Part shown: positions 20,974 through 30,138 of the stretch, in pieces | How the letters are laid out: the number at the start of each line of letters is the position of its first letter | Position numbering within the stretch: position 1 is the first letter of the stretch | Assembly (NCBI GenBank): GCA_041641295.1 | Contig: JBEPYO010000001.1 | Location: forward strand, 864,001 to 928,000 | Direction of reading: 5' to 3' | Source of the DNA: Nitrososphaerota archaeon | GTDB lineage: Archaea > Thermoproteota > Nitrososphaeria_A > Caldarchaeales > Calditenuaceae | DNA: 64,000 nt | Made by a program: the position numbers and the translations under genes | The notes under the pieces: generated by a model | The model's input: the letters and a program-made list of their open reading frames with translations, nothing else | Told to the model about the DNA's origin: nothing | Database searches by the model: none

Positions 20974-21762
20974 CTACAGCTTCCTCAGCACTCTCTCGAG
21001 CCACTCGGCCGTAGCGGATATGGCCTTCCACTCCACCTCAGGGCCCGTAAACGTGTGGTCCCCATCCTCAACCACAAACTTCTCCCGAGGCTCACCGGCC
21101 CTATTGTATAGCATGTCCGCGTGGCTCGGAGGGACGACGCTGTCCCTACCACCATGGACTATGAGCAGAGGCCTTGGAGAGATCTTGGAGACTGCCTCTG
21201 ATATGCTGTAGGACAGGAGGTCTCGGATGAACCTCATGCTCATCCTATACCCCGATGGCAGGTCTATGTATTCGCCGGAGGCCGCACCACCCTTTAAGAG
21301 GGTCTTCGCGTACTCTGCCAGTGCTAGGAAGTCTGCGGGAGCGCTCCACGTGCAGACAAACCTAATCCTAGGGTCGCGTGAGGCCCTGACTAGGGAGACC
21401 GCGCCACCCATACTCAAGCCCAGCACCCCAATCCTCCCAGCGTCAACGTCAGGCCTCCCTGAGACATAGTCCAGCACACTGCCTAGGTCCTCAACCTCGC
21501 TTGTAAAAGTCGCCTCACTAAACTCTCCCTCACTCTCGCCCGAGCCATAGAAGTCGAACCGCACCACGAGAAGACCCCTCCTACAGAACTCCCGGGCAGC
21601 CCTCACAAATAGGCGGTGAGCCTCAATCCTATTCCCAGTAAATCCATGGCACATAATGAGGCTGGGGGCTGGGGAATGGTTGGGAACGTGGAACATGCAG
21701 GCGAGCCTACCCCGAGGCCCCCCCACCCAAACAAACTCCTCCCGCACAACCCAGAGCTGCAC
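20974..21762 (-). CDS. Alpha/beta hydrolase
   Basis: CHGFTG, GLSMGG nucleophile elbow, HGGRDSVV, GDHTF. Confidence 0.9.
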   Translation of the reverse strand: MQLWVVREEFVWVGGPRGRLACMFHVPNHSPAPSLIMCHGFTGNRIEAHRLFVRAAREFCRRGLLVVRFDFYGSGESEGEFSEATFTSEVEDLGSVLDYVSGRPDVDAGRIGVLGLSMGGAVSLVRASRDPRIRFVCTWSAPADFLALAEYAKTLLKGGAASGEYIDLPSGYRMSMRFIRDLLSYSISEAVSKISPRPLLIVHGGRDSVVPPSHADMLYNRAGEPREKFVVEDGDHTFTGPEVEWKAISATAEWLERVLRKL

Positions 21763-21839
21763 ACCTCAATACAAATAGGTTATATACGCTAGGACAGAGA
21801 TGCCCATCCACCTGACCACCCAGCTGTACCGACGGAGAG

Positions 21840-21871
21840 TGGGGCCGGCCGGATTTGAACCGGCGACCTCC
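21840..21871 (-). pseudogene. Orphan tRNA 3' half (about positions 42-73)
   Basis: GGAGGTCGCCGGTTCAAATCCGGCCGGCCCCA; 31/32 identical to the 3' end of tRNA-Val at 39285-39316; no adjacent 5' half found. Confidence 0.8.
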
Positions 21872-22062
21872 ACATCTTTGAGTTCTCCATTAAAATATCC
21901 ATATTCAGTGTCTTTAGCCTTCTGTTGTAGCCTCTATTAATGCTTCGGAGAACTCGCTTCGTTATATCGGGTCTTAACCGATGGTCTTTAATAGGCTCAG
22001 ACTATGATTACTACATAGGCTGAGCTATTGTGTTGTGGTATTTTCGCTCTGGTGCCTATTCC

Positions 22063-22069
22063 TTTATAT
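22063..22069 (+). promoter_or_regulatory. Candidate TATA box for the downstream structured RNA
   Basis: TTTATAT ~28 nt upstream of the first helix at 22098. Confidence 0.4.
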
Positions 22070-22097
22070 CTATGGGTTTGTTTGTTGGTCTTAGATA

Positions 22098-22320
22098 GGC
22101 TCATCGGGAGCCCCGCAGCCTGATGGATCGATGAGTCGGGTGGGCCGACGAGACACCATCTCCAGAGGCGGTGGAGGTGGTGTGGAGTGTGCGTCAGGCT
22201 GTAGTAGTAGAGGCGCCCGCTGGTGACGTGTGATGTTAGTTCCACGTCTACAGAAGGCGCTGGGCTCCGCCGCTAGGCTGAGGCCGCGCGCCCAATAGAA
22301 AGACGCGGCTATAGGCCTAG
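22098..22320 (+). ncRNA. Candidate structured ncRNA, unknown family (domain 1)
   Basis: At least seven complementary segment pairs, including a possible pseudoknot; irregular pairs are G-U on the + strand. Confidence 0.6.
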
Positions 22321-22446
22321 ACAGAAAGATTAGACGACCATAACCACATACTCTTCCCCCAATTCTCACCCTAGCATGGGTGACCACCCCACCGTCTTTT
22401 TTGGACGGGGTGGCGGGGGGAGGGGTTGGCTGGGCTAGGGGCCTTG

Positions 22447-22497
22447 GGGCGGTTCGCTTGGACCGACCACGCGCCAGGGCGGCTCGCTTGGGCTGAC
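22447..22497 (+). repeat. Two 21-nt direct repeats (30-nt period), each a GCUU-loop hairpin
   Basis: GGGCGGTTCGCTTGGACCGAC and GGGCGGCTCGCTTGGGCTGAC; all differences preserve pairing. Confidence 0.75.
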
Positions 22498-22600
22498 GGA
22501 CGCGTGGAGAGGGACGAGGAATACCGACGACTCCTAAGGGATTGCTGGATGGTTTCAGATGTTACGGTTGATTCTAAAGGAAGATGGTCTAGGAATTAGG

Positions 22601-22857
22601 CCCCGATAGGAGGTCCCCTATCTCCGCCGGAGGGGTGTGCTCTCCGGCGGGAGGGGGTGTTATTCCTCCTGTCGGGGAGTCCCGTCTTTCTGGCGGCCTG
22701 GGCCTCCCGGGAAGGCCATGTCTCAGGACATGGCTTTTAGGGTTCCCCAGCACCTTGGGGGTGGGTTGGTGGCTGGGGATAATAGGGAGCAATATGCTCC
22801 CTCCACAAACCCCACGGCCCCTCCTGGTCCCGGGAGGAAGGCCGCCATGGATGGGAC
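22601..22857 (+). ncRNA. Candidate structured RNA / 5' leader of the LAGLIDADG gene (domain 2)
   Basis: 13-bp closed long hairpin 22601-22677 plus multibranch domain 22679-22857 ending just before the GGAGG SD. Confidence 0.6.
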
Positions 22858-22870
22858 GGGGGAGGATAGG

Positions 22871-23935
22871 ATGGAGAAGACTAGGCGAAGACTAACACCG
22901 GAGAAGAGGGCTAGACTCTTAGATGCGTTGAGGAGGGGTGTGGAGAAGGGGTACGGCTACGTTGATGTTTGGAGGGAGCTGAAGAAAAGCGGGATAGATG
23001 TTTCTAGGAAAGCCGTTGAGTACTGGTATTACAAGTGTTTTCCAGAGAGGGTTAGAAGAAGGGGAGAATACCTCCCAAGAGAACTGAGAATAAGATTGTA
23101 TGAAGAAGTCAGAGAGCTGAGAAGAAAAGGCCTAGGATACCGGAGAATAAGGAAGAATATCAAAGAACTTTACGGAGTTACGCTGAACAATGCTGTAATT
23201 AGTCATTGGTGTCGTGGAATTCACACACCATACAACGGTGCAAGGATACCCACAATAGACCATCTAGAACCATCCCCAGAGCTCGCCTATGTTATAGGTG
23301 TGGTTGCCGGTGATGGGTGGGTGGTAAAAATAAGCACAAGGAGTGGAGGATATAGGATTGGTGTCAAGGCGAAGGACAGAGAGTTCATTGAGGAGTTCGC
23401 GAGATGCTTGGGGAAAGTCCTCGGAAGAGAGCCGCCGAAGCCAATAACTGTAGAGGGTGGGAAGCTTGAAGTACGCGTCCAATCGAAGACACTATATCAG
23501 CTTTTACAGAAACCCTTTGACATTGGGATGATAAGACCACTCGCAGAATACTCCGAAGACTGTATACGAAGTTTTCTGAGAGGATTCTTCGATAGTGAGG
23601 GTTCTGTGGATAAAAATAAGGGAGAGATTTGTTGCTATAATACTGATATCAGGCTTCTCGAATACGTCCAGAAACTACTAAGGGCTCTAGGCATTGAGAC
23701 AACGGGGCCGAGAATCAAAGCGAGAAAGGGGTCAATCTATAAAATATGCTATAAAATATGGGAGAGAACAACTGTGAAGAGAAAGGACGTATATTGCATT
23801 GAAGTCAGGGCAAAGGATAGACTAAAATTCTATAGACTGGTAGGGTTCACTATAAAGCGAAAGCAACAAAACCTAGAAGAACACCTTAAGAAACGCGGAC
23901 TTCTGGTGACAAGCCACCAACCAACCCTCCCCTAA
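22871..23935 (+). CDS. Free-standing double-motif LAGLIDADG endonuclease with two N-terminal HTH domains
   Basis: LAYVIGVVAGDG and FLRGFFDSEG motifs, FYRLVGF...RK tail; no intein splicing blocks; ATG 22871 follows GGAGG; visibly more AT-rich than flanking genes. Confidence 0.88.
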   Translation: MEKTRRRLTPEKRARLLDALRRGVEKGYGYVDVWRELKKSGIDVSRKAVEYWYYKCFPERVRRRGEYLPRELRIRLYEEVRELRRKGLGYRRIRKNIKELYGVTLNNAVISHWCRGIHTPYNGARIPTIDHLEPSPELAYVIGVVAGDGWVVKISTRSGGYRIGVKAKDREFIEEFARCLGKVLGREPPKPITVEGGKLEVRVQSKTLYQLLQKPFDIGMIRPLAEYSEDCIRSFLRGFFDSEGSVDKNKGEICCYNTDIRLLEYVQKLLRALGIETTGPRIKARKGSIYKICYKIWERTTVKRKDVYCIEVRAKDRLKFYRLVGFTIKRKQQNLEEHLKKRGLLVTSHQPTLP

Positions 23936-23984
23936 TCCCTTCCCCCCACTTAATGCCCTCAGACTCATTTGCTCATTTGAAAAA

Positions 23985-24093
23985 TGGGGCCGGTGGGATT
24001 TGAACCCACGACCTCCTTCCCCAACTTGGGGGTGAAGCCCCAAGTTGACCGGGCCCGAGCCGGGCATCTTAGACCATGCTCGACCACGGCCCC
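23985..24093 (-). tRNA. tRNA-Pro(CGG) with 33-nt non-canonical intron (24016-24048, position ~42/43)
   Basis: GGGGCCG/CGGCCCCA acceptor stem, CCCGG-CT-CGG-GC-CCGG[intron]G anticodon arm, GTGGG-TTCAAAT-CCCAC T arm; 10-bp intron hairpin. Confidence 0.88.
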
Positions 24094-24150
24094 CCTACCG
24101 CTCCAAGCAGCCGCGCAAAAAATAAACGTAATCCGGTCTGGGAGGGGATG

Positions 24151-24381
24151 TTAGACGACTATAGCGGTTTCGGTCCTCTCAACGCCGTCGATCGTGTGTA
24201 TCTGGGATAGGACCGTGTCTGTCAGCTTCTTCAAGTCCTCAGCCTCTACTAGGACCAGTACGTCGTATCTGCCGGTTATCATGCACGCGAGTTTACAGCC
24301 CGAGATCTTTCCAACCTGCTCGACAACATTCTTCGCCTTACCCGCCCTAGCCCTAATGAAGACGTATGCTTGGACCGCCAC
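24151..24381 (-). CDS. Lrp/AsnC ligand-binding (RAM) domain protein
   Basis: AYVFI...ITGRYDVLVLV...IDGVERTETAIV. Confidence 0.88.
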   Translation of the reverse strand: MAVQAYVFIRARAGKAKNVVEQVGKISGCKLACMITGRYDVLVLVEAEDLKKLTDTVLSQIHTIDGVERTETAIVV

Positions 24382-30031: not shown

Positions 30032-30138
30032 TGGGGCCGGTGGGACTTGAACCCACGGCTTCCGGGTTTCTTCTGTGCCAGCTACGCTTGTTGATGGGAT
30101 CTGGAGCCCGGCGCCCTACCTTGCTAGGCCACGGCCCC
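30032..30138 (-). tRNA. tRNA-Trp(CCA) with 33-nt intron at canonical 37/38 (30068-30100)
   Basis: CCGGG-CT-CCA-G[intron]A-CCCGG anticodon arm, T arm GTGGG-TTCAAGT-CCCAC. Confidence 0.9.

What the first reader, a model, noticed from the sequence alone, without database searches (positions are those of the whole stretch)
21840..23985. Candidate RNA-associated endonuclease element: ~770 nt structured RNA plus free-standing 2xHTH-LAGLIDADG between a tRNA and a tRNA half
Seen: about 1 kb (21872-22870) with no credible CDS in an otherwise gene-dense genome, filled with helices whose irregular pairs are G-U on the + strand. A TATA-like box lies at 22063, and the region is followed on the same strand by an AT-richer 354-aa ORF with two tandem HTH domains and two intact LAGLIDADG motifs (GVVAGDG, GFFDSEG), with no intein blocks or host intron. 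The unit sits between the 3' end of tRNA-Pro and an orphan tRNA 3' half. Known: LAGLIDADG enzymes normally live in introns or inteins; structured RNAs linked to endonuclease ORFs exist (HEARO/omegaRNA with IscB, LAGLIDADG-associated RNA motifs). Inference: this may be a tRNA-associated mobile or domesticated RNP system in which the RNA scaffolds, guides or regulates the nuclease.
Basis: partly seen in the sequence, partly recalled or inferred. Interest (0 to 1): 0.85.

Follow-up and report, generated by a model that had tools for sequence, protein, structure and literature searches.

The report
Homing-endonuclease cassette inserted in tRNA-Pro
A 2.2-kb selfish DNA cassette has landed inside a proline tRNA gene of a hot-spring archaeon, mending the gene with its own spare tRNA piece, and it carries a homing-endonuclease gene behind a large folded RNA leader that other mobile genes of these archaea share.

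Summary
Window 21873-24050 is about 2,178 bp of inserted DNA. In two same-genus genomes tRNA-Pro(CGG) is uninterrupted, and its 3' part is 100% identical to the "orphan" half at 21840-21871.

The insert carries:
- a replacement tRNA 3' part (23985-24017) plus a 33-nt intervening sequence;
- a free-standing I-DmoI-like LAGLIDADG gene with both catalytic acidic residues and two weak N-terminal HTH repeats;
- an AT-rich segment with a TATA-like box;
- a roughly 760-nt GC-rich leader.

The leader is non-coding and conserved. It is structured on the + strand: 90% of cells pair, against 46-58% in slid controls; G·U cells number 100, against 26 A·C cells.

The leader is not specific to the endonuclease. 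Its core motif occurs in 13 of 76 genomes of the order. Of 30 copies, 13 precede LAGLIDADG genes and 12 precede an unannotated protein family whose model matches IS110 bridge recombinases and TIGR-TasR.

Most likely this is a tRNA-targeting homing cassette. The leader probably acts in cis or belongs to the recombinase-like system. A role as guide for the LAGLIDADG enzyme is unsupported. No RNA data exist.

The parts
21840..21871 (-). Displaced original 3' part (variable loop, T arm, acceptor 3' strand) of tRNA-Pro(CGG): the 'orphan half'.
   Evidence: It is 100% identical over 32 nt to the 3' part of the uninterrupted tRNA-Pro genes in L037 (G003) and L019 (G001), and over 33 nt (21839-21871) in L038 (G002). 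It differs at 6 of 34 positions from the 3' end of the resident tRNA-Pro, with paired changes in the T stem.
21873..22110 (+). AT-rich left segment of the insert. It begins ACATCTTTGAG and holds the TATA-like TTTATAT at 22063-22069.
   Evidence: GC is 0.40-0.49. It is not shared with the other leader copies, apart from 21888-21946, which resembles the upstream region of the Arg(CCU)-linked paralog (78%), and 22028-22074, which matches one other place in the genome. A similar left terminus (ACATGTCTTGGG) follows the orphan fragment in L015. Promoter function was not tested.
22111..22525 (+). Leader module M: a GC-rich multi-helix region ending in two degenerate stem-loop units (about 22441-22510).
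   Evidence: It is homologous at 69-81% to regions upstream of IS110/TasR-fold genes and of a LAGLIDADG gene in G000, G005 and G006. RNAalifold on 5 copies predicts 121 pairs, 25 of them with a change on both sides. Stem-loop units were counted.
22569..22759 (+). Leader core motif (model R1): a long irregular hairpin (S1/S1b/S2), the invariant GGCCUCCCGGGAAgGCC and hairpin S5.
   Evidence: The model matches here at 132.6 bits. It occurs in 13 of 76 genomes of the order. On 30 copies 90.0% of cells pair, against 46.5-57.7% when the partners are slid. Nine pairs change on both sides (10 of 500 shuffles reach this). The covariation score is 0.174 against 0.130 (0 of 500). G·U cells number 100, A·C cells 26.
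22750..22870 (+). Leader module P3': hairpins CCCCAGC/GCUGGGG and GGGAGC/GCUCCC, the 3' strands of the long-range helices (UCCCGGGAGG, GGCCGCC), and a purine-rich Shine-Dalgarno-like run before the ATG.
   Evidence: It is 85-90% identical among LAGLIDADG-linked copies, while the ORFs are about 72-75% identical. Its substitution pattern is not that of a coding region, and one copy has a 1-nt insertion. The long-range pairing was read from the alignment and was not counted statistically.
22871..23935 (+). Free-standing gene for a 354-aa protein: two HTH-like repeats followed by a monomeric double-motif LAGLIDADG endonuclease.
   Evidence: Pfam LAGLIDADG_3 E 1.2e-21. I-DmoI is the closest solved relative (E 3.7e-6, residues 138-290), and both motif acidic residues align. 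There are 5 full-length paralogs and one broken copy in the genome. The family has up to 50 matches per related genome.
23936..23984 (.). Spacer between the stop codon and the tRNA 3' end. On the - strand a T run follows the tRNA directly.
   Evidence: Read from the sequence. A comparable gap of 53-91 nt (as measured) separates each of the 5 full-length paralogs in this genome from its tRNA.
23985..24017 (-). Replacement 3' part of tRNA-Pro brought in with the insert (T stem GUGGG/CCCAC).
   Evidence: It is identical to the 3' part of this genome's own tRNA-Pro(UGG), and to the tRNA-Pro at the orthologous site of G007 and G004 (100% over 33 nt). Almost the same 3' part sits beside the closest homolog, in a tRNA-Val(CAC) in L015.
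24018..24050 (-). 33-nt intervening sequence inside the anticodon-stem 3' strand (position 41/42 or 42/43; a G makes the boundary ambiguous by one base). It forms an 11-bp hairpin.
   Evidence: It is absent from the uninterrupted genes of G001, G002, G003, G004 and G007. Hairpin. Only a relaxed bulge-helix-bulge can be drawn by hand. Splicing is not shown.
24051..24093 (-). Resident 5' part of tRNA-Pro(CGG), host DNA.
   Evidence: It runs on, together with the right flank, into the orthologous loci (91% to L037 over 24049-24200).

Best explanation
Window 21873-24050 is a recent, mosaic mobile insertion of about 2.18 kb in the tRNA-Pro(CGG) gene.

Its engine is most likely the free-standing I-DmoI-like LAGLIDADG homing endonuclease, whose two N-terminal HTH repeats would add DNA binding. 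This gene family lives next to the 3' ends of tRNA genes, in convergent orientation.

Proposed course:
- The enzyme cuts a tRNA gene at or near the variable-loop/T-arm region.
- Repair copies in the cassette.
- The cassette brings a replacement 3' tRNA part with a different T stem, plus a 33-nt spacer that the archaeal splicing endonuclease would have to remove. The tRNA stays usable and the new allele is no longer a target.
- The old 3' part remains as an orphan.

The roughly 760-nt GC-rich region in front of the gene is a non-coding, + strand structured leader. It would be transcribed from the TATA-like box at 22063. It belongs to a family of leaders shared by LAGLIDADG genes and by IS110/TasR-fold genes of these archaea. 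At this locus it most likely acts in cis on the mRNA (stability, or control of translation through its CCUCC/GGAGG helices and the Shine-Dalgarno-like run), not as a guide for the LAGLIDADG enzyme.

Shown: the insertion, its composition, the tRNA linkage, and the conservation and pairing of the leader.
Inferred: cleavage, homing, splicing, transcription and the leader's role.
For: Insertion:
- In L037 (G003) and L019 (G001) tRNA-Pro(CGG) is uninterrupted. Its 3' part equals window 21840-21871 (100% of 32 nt) and is joined directly to the counterpart of 24049-24093.
- In G003 both flanks are syntenic: 85% over 21701-21816 and 91% over 24049-24200. The left-flank protein is 76% identical.
- The replacement part 23985-24017 equals the 3' part of this genome's tRNA-Pro(UGG).
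- Contigs from a second hot-spring study (runs X2, X3) carry the same arrangement, with 0 differences over 21400-24014.

Endonuclease:
- LAGLIDADG_3 E 1.2e-21.
- I-DmoI is the closest solved relative, and the D and E of both motifs align.

Mobility:
- 5 full-length copies plus one broken copy in the genome.
- 28 of 41 related genomes have matches, up to 50 each, many broken or at contig ends.

tRNA linkage:
- All 5 full-length copies in G000 lie 53-91 nt from a convergent tRNA.
- An antisense T-arm motif lies within 140 nt downstream in 14 of 35 distinct loci.
- The same architecture (orphan 3' fragment, leader, gene, tRNA-Val with an insertion before nearly the same replacement 3' part) is seen in L015.

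Leader:
- Not coding.
- Conserved above the level of the ORF.
- Paired with covariation and a G·U bias to the + strand.
- GC 0.56-0.64 against 0.40-0.51 in the ORF.
- Shared by two gene families.
Against: - No cleavage site or target is known. No experiment or RNA data exist: no RNA run is listed, so transcription of the leader and splicing of the tRNA are unproven.
- The 33-nt sequence does not form a canonical bulge-helix-bulge (hand analysis). tRNA-Pro(CGG) could be dead, with tRNA-Pro(UGG) reading its codons.
- In G001 a short-form homolog sits beside an uninterrupted tRNA-Pro that has the 'old' T arm. That T arm is therefore not necessarily a target.
- Orphan fragments upstream are rare: 6 of 35 rows. 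Two of those rows are this locus, and one is a palindromic hit that also scores in the sense orientation. The 'patch' route is not shown to be general.
- The junctions share at most one base, which neither proves nor excludes a recombinase.
- The cis-regulatory role of the leader is reached by elimination. Its link with an RNA-guided-fold protein family keeps a trans-acting role open.
Confidence: 0.6

Rival explanations
1. The leader is a guide or bridge-type RNA of the IS110/TasR-fold protein family ('B', P0122). That protein is absent from this insert but encoded 5 times elsewhere in the genome. It would act in trans on the leader-bearing unit and would have placed it in the tRNA gene. The LAGLIDADG gene would be cargo that replaced the recombinase gene.
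For: - The AF2 model of B (pLDDT 87.1) matches the ISCro4 and IS621 bridge recombinases and TIGR-TasR: Foldseek E 5.5e-7 to 8.4e-6, TM 0.58-0.66, 13 hits at E <= 0.001. The ESM Atlas points the same way.
- 12 of 30 leader copies sit directly upstream of B genes.
- Module M is about 1 kb upstream of B in G000 and G006.
- M holds 2-6 stem-loop units with a conserved apex and covarying flanks.
- IS110 bridge RNAs lie in the non-coding end upstream of the recombinase, and TIGR arrays lie beside Nop-domain genes (PMC11208160, search listing and abstract only; PMC12045711, passages read).
- The paper on Caldiarchaeum describes a non-coding region 'a' plus an ORF 'b' of 813 bp between a tRNA fragment and a tRNA that gained an intron (PMC3293823). 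A 270-aa Caldiarchaeum subterraneum protein belongs to the B family (P0170).
Against: - Only 1 tRNA was found in 13 B loci, and it lies far from the gene. All 5 LAGLIDADG copies in G000 are tRNA-linked, with or without the leader.
- No significant complementarity links the leader and the target.
- B has no sequence-level match to the IS110 Pfam models, even in a one-genome search. Its catalytic residues were not established.
- B elements also carry a second structured region at their 3' end, which could be the true guide. It is missing here.
- The element ends of B were not defined.
Confidence: 0.15
2. One reading: the roughly 770-nt RNA and the LAGLIDADG protein form an RNP in which the RNA scaffolds, guides or regulates the nuclease.
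For: The coupling is recurrent: 13 of 30 leader copies lie 104-482 nt upstream of LAGLIDADG genes, on loci from at least seven genomes (G000, G005, G006, G013, G032, G038, G047) plus the named record L101. The leader is under stronger nucleotide constraint than the ORF. LAGLIDADG proteins that bind RNA (intron maturases) exist (recalled, not tested here).
Against: - 3 of 5 paralogs in this genome lack the leader core.
- 12 of 30 leaders serve an unrelated gene.
- No match to the target above chance.
- No LAGLIDADG enzyme is known to use a guide RNA (recalled).
Confidence: 0.07
3. The region is the decayed remnant of a larger integrase-borne integrative element (virus or plasmid of the SSV or pNOB8 kind). 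That element would have integrated into the tRNA gene and left a partial tRNA repeat; the endonuclease gene would be a leftover passenger.
For: A full tRNA plus a partial 3' copy flanking foreign DNA is the classic footprint of such integration (PMC3293823, Discussion passages). The ORF is AT-richer than the genome.
Against: - There is no integrase gene or fragment in the 2.18 kb.
- The two tRNA 3' parts differ at 6 of 34 positions instead of forming an identical att core.
- The insert is the same size and identical in independent samples.
- The endonuclease-tRNA linkage recurs at many different tRNAs.
Confidence: 0.08
4. The 'leader' is coding: an N-terminal extension from the conserved in-frame ATG at 22718, or a decayed gene.
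For: The frame is open from 22637. Gene callers start the protein upstream of 22871: the public record P0002 has 388 aa. Four indels among close copies are multiples of three.
Against: - There is no third-position excess, and divergence is lower than in the ORF.
- Single-base indels occur in L064 and in the 5' half.
- The same sequence lies upstream of the unrelated B genes at other distances and in another frame.
- More distant homologs of 337-358 aa have no such extension.
- No Pfam hit.
Confidence: 0.03

Closest known systems
I-DmoI and other archaeal intron-encoded monomeric LAGLIDADG homing endonucleases
   Same: It has two LAGLIDADG motifs in one chain. I-DmoI is the best solved match (E 3.7e-6), and the motif D and E align. 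The host is archaeal and thermophilic.
   Different: The gene stands free on the strand opposite to the disrupted gene, not inside an rRNA intron or an intein. It has about 135 extra N-terminal residues with two HTH-like repeats. It is linked to tRNA genes. Cleavage was not tested.
Free-standing homing endonuclease genes beside their targets, such as phage T4 SegB in the tRNA gene cluster (recalled from memory; no paper read here)
   Same: The endonuclease gene lies next to, not inside, a conserved RNA gene. The flanking allele is inherited along with it. Immunity through sequence differences in the carried allele is the proposed logic.
   Different: The enzyme class differs (LAGLIDADG, not GIY-YIG). 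The setting is an archaeal chromosome. Here the insertion splits the tRNA gene and supplies a replacement part plus an intron-like spacer.
The 'a+b' insertion sequence at tRNA-Thr(GGU) of Caldiarchaeum subterraneum (Sugahara et al. 2012, PMC3293823; abstract, section 6 and passages read)
   Same: The phylum is the same. About 1.9-2.2 kb sits between a tRNA fragment and a tRNA gene that gained an intron at the junction. A non-coding region conserved at the nucleotide level lies upstream of a multi-copy ORF. The authors' model of intron gain by a mobile element fits this locus.
   Different: - There the ORF has 813 bp and is called a putative recombinase. LAGLIDADG is not mentioned (0 occurrences). 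By size, and through a named 270-aa C. subterraneum homolog (P0170), it resembles the B family, not the endonuclease.
- There the ORF is on the tRNA strand and the duplicated piece is the 5' part. Here the ORF is convergent and the 3' part is duplicated.
- Sequence identity of 'a' with this leader could not be tested.
IS110-family elements with bridge RNA (IS621, ISCro4), and TIGR-Tas systems
   Same: The leader family at this locus also precedes genes whose predicted fold matches these RNA-guided proteins. It is a structured non-coding RNA region beside the gene, with repeated stem-loop units.
   Different: - No such protein is encoded in this insert.
- The leader is about 4 times longer than a bridge RNA (177 nt for IS621; recalled).
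- No target or donor complementarity was found.
- There is no Pfam-level membership.
HEARO/omega-RNA with IscB
   Same: A large structured RNA lies next to a mobile nuclease gene.
   Different: The nuclease here is a protein-guided LAGLIDADG type. There is no Rfam match. The RNA is shared with another gene family.
SSV- or pNOB8-type integrative elements at archaeal tRNA genes
   Same: A tRNA gene and a partial tRNA copy flank foreign DNA.
   Different: There is no integrase. The repeats are not identical (6 of 34 differ). The insert is only 2.18 kb.

Membership tests
LAGLIDADG homing endonuclease (monomeric, double motif) | Two LAGLIDADG motifs in one polypeptide | tested here: met
   Pfam PF14528 E 1.2e-21, 2 stretches. 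The motifs are GVVAGDG and GFFDSEG.
LAGLIDADG homing endonuclease (monomeric, double motif) | An acidic catalytic residue at the end of each motif | tested here: met
   The D of GVVAGDG aligns with GLIIGDG of I-DmoI, and the E of FFDSEG with YVAEG. Which I-DmoI residues are catalytic is recalled, not tested.
LAGLIDADG homing endonuclease (monomeric, double motif) | Site-specific DNA cleavage and homing | not testable with these tools
   Only indirect signs: presence/absence polymorphism and many copies, including broken ones.
LAGLIDADG homing endonuclease (monomeric, double motif) | Residence in a self-splicing intron, an archaeal intron or an intein | tested here: not met
   The ORF stands alone on the strand opposite to the tRNA. 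NCBIfam hits are only to the intein-bearing parts of large proteins, far below their cut-offs. There is no group I or group II intron match in Rfam. It is therefore filed as a free-standing member.
Integrase-mediated integrative element at a tRNA gene | A tyrosine-recombinase integrase gene in the element | tested here: not met
   The only long ORF is the LAGLIDADG gene. The other ORFs gave 0 Pfam families.
Integrase-mediated integrative element at a tRNA gene | Identical direct repeats (att core) at both ends | tested here: not met
   6 mismatches in 34 nt. The junctions share at most one base.
IS110-family element with bridge RNA | A DEDD/RuvC plus Tnp-domain recombinase encoded in the element | tested here: not met
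   None lies in 21873-24050. The B family with that fold is encoded elsewhere. Pfam PF01548 and PF02371 find no B copy in the genome.
IS110-family element with bridge RNA | A non-coding RNA whose loops pair with the target and donor DNA | tested here: inconclusive
   The longest match of the leader to the tRNA-Pro site is 9 nt, reached by 184 of 500 shuffles. Donor ends are unknown.
Caldiarchaeum 'a+b' insertion sequence (PMC3293823) | Lies between a tRNA fragment and a tRNA gene that gained an intron at the junction | tested here: met
   for this locus.
Caldiarchaeum 'a+b' insertion sequence (PMC3293823) | An ORF 'b' of 813 bp of the putative recombinase family | tested here: not met
   The ORF here is a 354-aa LAGLIDADG protein. 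'b' resembles the B family in length (270-aa P0170). The paper's own sequences were not at hand.
Archaeal bulge-helix-bulge intron (the 33-nt sequence) | Two 3-nt bulges separated by a 4-bp helix at the splice sites | tested here: inconclusive
   The fold gives an 11-bp hairpin. By hand, only a 3-bp helix with one bulge can be drawn. Splicing was not tested.
Any Rfam family (leader RNA) | A score at or above the gathering threshold | tested here: not met
   No match in 21873-22870 at gathering. At E up to 10 only chance-level microRNA and sRNA models appear. RNase P RNA and SRP RNA lie elsewhere in the genome.

The most novel reading that the evidence does not exclude
The 760-nt leader would be a member of an undescribed family of large guide-type RNAs, with modular helices and arrays of stem-loop units. 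These RNAs would belong to a divergent archaeal RNA-guided recombinase or nuclease with the IS110/TasR/Nop5 fold. LAGLIDADG homing endonuclease genes would have captured this RNA module repeatedly. The unit at tRNA-Pro would then be a hybrid selfish element using both a protein-guided nuclease and an RNA-guided partner supplied in trans. Such hybrids would be a living source of new tRNA introns and split tRNA genes.
Probability: 0.2. Interest if true: 0.9.

Novelty: new variant of a known kind. Interest (0 to 1): 0.68.

Why it matters
1. The locus is a clean natural 'before and after' case. The same tRNA-Pro gene is intact in sister genomes. Here it is split by a cassette that supplies a spare 3' part and an intron-like spacer. 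That bears directly on the old question of where archaeal non-canonical tRNA introns and split tRNA genes come from. It also names a concrete agent, a LAGLIDADG homing endonuclease family, which the 2012 Caldiarchaeum study did not identify.

2. It exposes a large structured RNA family absent from Rfam 15, present in 13 of 76 genomes of the order.

3. That RNA links two mobile gene families. One of them has the fold of bridge recombinases and TasR but escapes Pfam. This could extend the known range of RNA-guided DNA systems in archaea, and it touches the proposed IS110-Nop5 kinship.

All functional claims still need RNA and biochemical data.

Tried and rejected
- Housekeeping RNA: RNase P RNA and SRP RNA are elsewhere in the genome. 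There is no Rfam family in the leader.
- Coding leader: rejected by the codon-position test and by frame-breaking indels.
- Guide complementarity: the 9-nt identity and complement between the leader (22703-22711, 22829-22837) and the tRNA-Pro insertion site is reached by 184 of 500 block shuffles. The motif is also invariant in leaders at other sites.
- Tandem Repeats Finder does not see the stem-loop units, and a first strict regex found only one. A looser one listed them.
- RNAalifold on the raw MAFFT alignment A1 gave a poor structure. I therefore wrote the structure from the window's fold and let the model realign the copies. The pair counts thus lean towards that structure. The slid controls are the fairer comparison.
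- Element ends of the B family could not be defined, because similarity between G006 copies runs on into their flanks.
- Orphan tRNA fragments upstream of the other 4 paralogs in G000: none within 6 kb at 8 or fewer mismatches.
- aragorn's 'tRNA-Met with a 2,101-nt intron' lies inside coding genes and is spurious. Its 'tRNA-Gly with an 890-nt intron' joins the orphan half to the antisense of the leader and is an artefact.
- No RNA holder is listed for the stretch, so expression is untested.
- The contigs laid show no joined form lacking the insert. The 33-nt 'skip' is a 76-nt contig with 2 other letters, which fits the separate tRNA-Pro(UGG) gene.
- Literature: searches found no paper on free-standing LAGLIDADG genes at archaeal tRNA genes. 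One search found none on bridge-type RNAs in Aigarchaeota. Supplementary files were not opened and may hold relevant lists, for example the archaeal IS110 homologs of 10.1101/2024.06.21.599552 (only passages of that preprint were read).

Full report
**What is at the coordinates.** The window lies in a 1.56-Mb archaeal genome of 52.5% GC. Protein names of close homologs point to Aigarchaeota/Caldarchaeum-like Nitrososphaerota.

Rfam finds a tRNA at 23985-24093 on the - strand (44.9 bits) with an internal insertion. aragorn with intron search calls it tRNA-Pro(CGG).

At 21840-21871, also on the - strand, lies the 3' third of a tRNA. It differs from the 3' end of the resident tRNA-Pro at 6 of 34 positions, with paired changes in the T stem (GCCGG/CCGGC against GUGGG/CCCAC).

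Between them run, on the + strand:
- 21873-22110, an AT-rich stretch holding TTTATAT at 22063-22069;
- about 22111-22870, a GC-rich stretch (GC 0.56-0.64);
- 22871-23935, an AT-richer ORF (GC 0.40-0.51).

**The ORF.** It encodes 354 aa with LAGLIDADG_3 (E 1.2e-21, two stretches).
- The closest solved structure by sequence is I-DmoI (E 3.7e-6, residues 138-290).
- GVVAGDG and GFFDSEG align with the two I-DmoI motifs, including their acidic residues.
- The first 135 residues are two repeats that resemble each other (E 2e-4). They touch transposase-type HTH models below Pfam's cut-off.
- NCBIfam gives only far sub-threshold hits to intein-bearing proteins.

So it is a free-standing, probably active, monomeric LAGLIDADG endonuclease with an added DNA-binding head.

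**It is an insertion.** I took the left-flank gene (window 20974-21762) to the same-genus genomes and compared the loci.
- In L037 (G003) and L019 (G001) tRNA-Pro(CGG) is uninterrupted. Its 3' part is 100% identical over 32 nt to the 'orphan' 21840-21871. That part is joined directly to the counterpart of 24049-24093.
- In G003 both flanks match: 85% over 21701-21816 and 91% over 24049-24200.
- G002 has the same T arm on a tRNA-Pro(UGG).
- G007 and G004 have, at the orthologous place, an uninterrupted tRNA-Pro(UGG) whose 3' part equals 23985-24017.

Hence in this genome about 2,178 bp (21872/3 to 24050) were inserted at tRNA position 41/42 or 42/43; a G leaves one base ambiguous. In tRNA orientation the insert consists of:
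- a 33-nt intervening sequence (24018-24050);
- a new 3' part (23985-24017);
- a 49-nt spacer;
- the endonuclease gene in antisense;
- the kilobase upstream of that gene.

The old 3' part was pushed to the far end. The new 3' part is identical to that of this genome's own tRNA-Pro(UGG).

Contigs of two runs from a second hot-spring study carry the same arrangement without a single difference over 21400-24014. No RNA run is listed.

**The gene family is mobile and linked to tRNA genes.**
- The genome has 5 full-length paralogs (54-67% identity) and one broken copy.
- Each of the 5 lies 53-91 nt from the 3' end of a convergent tRNA gene: Pro-CGG, Ile-GAU, Arg-UCU, Arg-CCU, His-GUG.
- 28 of 41 related genomes have matches, up to 50 per genome. 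Many are broken or at contig ends.
- An antisense T-arm motif lies within 140 nt downstream of the stop in 14 of 35 distinct loci with enough sequence, and in 2 of 3 loci cut by a contig end.
- The closest homolog (L015, 70-72% identity) has the same build. An orphan tRNA 3' fragment comes first, then a leader starting with a similar terminus (ACATGTCTTGGG against ACATCTTTGAG here), then the gene. Last comes a tRNA-Val(CAC) with an insertion just before almost the same replacement 3' part.

Against generality, upstream orphan fragments appear in only 6 of 35 rows. Two of those rows are this locus, and one is a palindromic hit. Also, G001 has a short-form homolog beside an uninterrupted tRNA-Pro that carries the old T arm.

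**The upstream kilobase is non-coding and structured.**
- Its short ORFs have no Pfam family.
- Both halves fold far better than shuffles on either strand: z -6.0 and -7.2 for 22590-22880, z -4.5 and -3.8 for 22090-22590. The + strand has the lower energy by 20-45 kcal/mol.
- It is modular: M (22111-22525), P5' (22596-22740) and P3' (22750-22870). The three recur in this order upstream of homologous genes.
- The first 240 nt (21873-22110) are not shared.
- Among LAGLIDADG-linked copies the last 120 nt before the ATG differ at 0.107/0.153/0.095 per codon position. The first 120 nt of the ORF differ at 0.18/0.18/0.37. One copy has a 1-nt insertion. This is nucleotide-level constraint, not coding.

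**Covariation.**
- From 20 copies I built model R1 for P5': a 31-bp irregular hairpin, an invariant GGCCUCCCGGGAAgGCC and a small hairpin.
- R1 finds the motif in 13 of 76 genomes of the order, with 1-14 copies each. By family the counts are f1 3/18, f4 7/18, f3 2/35 and f2 0/4.
- On the model-based alignment of 30 copies, 90.0% of 859 cells form standard pairs, against 46.5-57.7% when the partners are slid by 1-3 columns. Nine pairs change on both sides (10 of 500 shuffles reach this). The covariation score is 0.174 against 0.130 (0 of 500).
- The alignment was fitted to the structure, so these figures lean its way.
- G·U/U·G cells number 100 and A·C/C·A cells 26. That places the folded strand on +. 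It cannot tell RNA from single-stranded DNA.
- For M, RNAalifold on 5 copies predicts 121 pairs, 25 with a change on both sides.
- M ends in 2-6 stem-loop units with the conserved apex GGACAGCC-N4-GGYUGAC and covarying flanks. There are 6 in L113 and 2 degenerate ones here.
- Long-range helices between P5' and P3' (GGCGGCC/GGCCGCC, CCUCCCGGGA/UCCCGGGAGG) are visible in the alignment and the fold. I did not count them.
- A purine-rich GGAGG-like run precedes the ATG in all copies.

**The leader is not the endonuclease's own.**
- Of the 30 R1 copies, 13 lie upstream of LAGLIDADG genes, 12 upstream of a second gene family ('B', P0122, 297 aa) and 5 upstream of neither.
- Three of the 5 LAGLIDADG paralogs in this genome lack R1 at E <= 0.001.
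- B has no Pfam, NCBIfam or PDB-sequence match. The IS110 Pfam models do not find it even in a one-genome search. All 53 homologs are 'hypothetical'.
- The ESM Atlas pointed to IS110 transposases. An AF2 model from 33 sequences (pLDDT 87.1, pTM 0.82) matches the bridge recombinases ISCro4 and IS621 and TIGR-TasR: Foldseek E 5.5e-7 to 8.4e-6, TM 0.58-0.66. There are 13 matches at E <= 0.001 and the listed ones all come from these systems.
- B genes also carry a conserved structured region across and after their stop codon, with a covarying central hairpin. This locus has none.
- B loci are not tRNA-linked: 1 tRNA in 13 loci, far from the gene.
- The leader's best match to the tRNA-Pro target is 9 nt, reached by 184 of 500 shuffles.

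**Literature.** Sugahara et al. 2012 (PMC3293823; abstract, section 6 and passages read) described a 1,868-bp insertion in Caldiarchaeum subterraneum.
- It lies between a tRNA-Thr fragment and a tRNA-Thr that gained an intron.
- It is made of a nucleotide-conserved non-coding region 'a' (545 bp, six copies) and an ORF 'b' (813 bp, seven paralogs). 'b' was called a putative recombinase from a machine-learning classifier.
- The word LAGLIDADG does not occur in the paper.
- By length, and through a named 270-aa C. subterraneum member (P0170), 'b' looks like the B family. I could not compare the sequences themselves.

The kinship of IS110 recombinases, TasR and Nop5, and the existence of stem-loop guide arrays, are taken from passages of 10.1101/2024.06.21.599552 and PMC12045711. 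I saw the bridge-RNA paper PMC11208160 only as a search listing and abstract. Searches found no description of free-standing LAGLIDADG genes at archaeal tRNA genes, nor of this leader. Supplements were closed.

**Reading.**
- Most likely (0.6) this is a homing-endonuclease cassette that targets tRNA genes and mends its own damage with a carried tRNA part plus a spacer. That produces a new non-canonical tRNA intron and an orphan half in one step. The leader is a shared structured 5' leader acting in cis.
- The main rival (0.15) is that the leader is a guide-type RNA of the IS110/TasR-fold protein acting in trans.
- The insertion itself I hold at about 0.95, and the conserved + strand structure at about 0.85.
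- Cleavage, homing, splicing, transcription and the role of the leader are inferences.

Noticed in passing
L082 (G000:C1:1092964-1093854) and four more copies in G000 outside the window; L083-L093, L137, L058: An unannotated 297-aa protein family ('B', P0122) is restricted to Caldarchaeum-like archaea. It has no Pfam, NCBIfam or PDB-sequence hit, but its AF2 model matches the IS110-family bridge recombinases (ISCro4, IS621) and TIGR-TasR. It has 5 matches in G000, 23 in G006 and 8 in G024.
   Followed up: partly
L082 about 2360-2600 and the equivalent stretch of 14 other B loci: A conserved structured region of about 200 nt overlaps and follows the B stop codon. It has outer helices (GGCUGG.../...CCAGCC, CACCGGCC/GGCCGGUG, GACAGCA/UGCUGUC) and a central hairpin whose sequence differs between copies while staying paired. 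It ends in CAGCCAAACyCUCCCCUAUUUU. This may be the element's own guide RNA or its right end.
   Followed up: no
window 22441-22510; L113 1035-1330; L137 (reverse strand); L082 955-1100: Arrays of 2-6 stem-loop units have the conserved apex GGACAGCC-N4-GGYUGAC and covarying flanking stems. Copy number differs between elements. They recall the stem-loop type of TIGR arrays (PMC12045711, passages). TRF does not detect them.
   Followed up: partly
G000:C1:1113493-1113586 and 618469-618561 (outside the window; L007, L009): Two other tRNAs that neighbour LAGLIDADG paralogs also carry odd insertions. tRNA-Ile(GAU) has an 18-nt insertion after the anticodon loop, and tRNA-Arg(CCU) has about 16-18 extra nt in the variable region. 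These may be older scars of the same process. No orphan halves are left.
   Followed up: partly
L060 (G006:C9) and L074 (G006:C16): A B-type leader is fused directly to a short-form LAGLIDADG gene (one HTH repeat). This shows that leaders are swapped between the two gene families.
   Followed up: partly
window 22783-22821 (- strand) with 21839-21871: aragorn joins the orphan half to the antisense of the leader as a 'tRNA-Gly with an 890-nt intron' (row L034). The antisense of the leader there begins with the same 10 letters as tRNA-Pro. Other copies do not keep this, so it is probably chance.
   Followed up: partly
window 30032-30138 (-): A second intron-containing tRNA lies in the window (Rfam 58 bits; aragorn: tRNA-Trp with a 33-nt intron). 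Default aragorn missed it.
   Followed up: no
G000:C1:859912-860417 (about 3.6 kb before the window start; L011, L012): A broken copy of the LAGLIDADG gene (residues 174-346, with stops and a frameshift) has no tRNA motif downstream.
   Followed up: no
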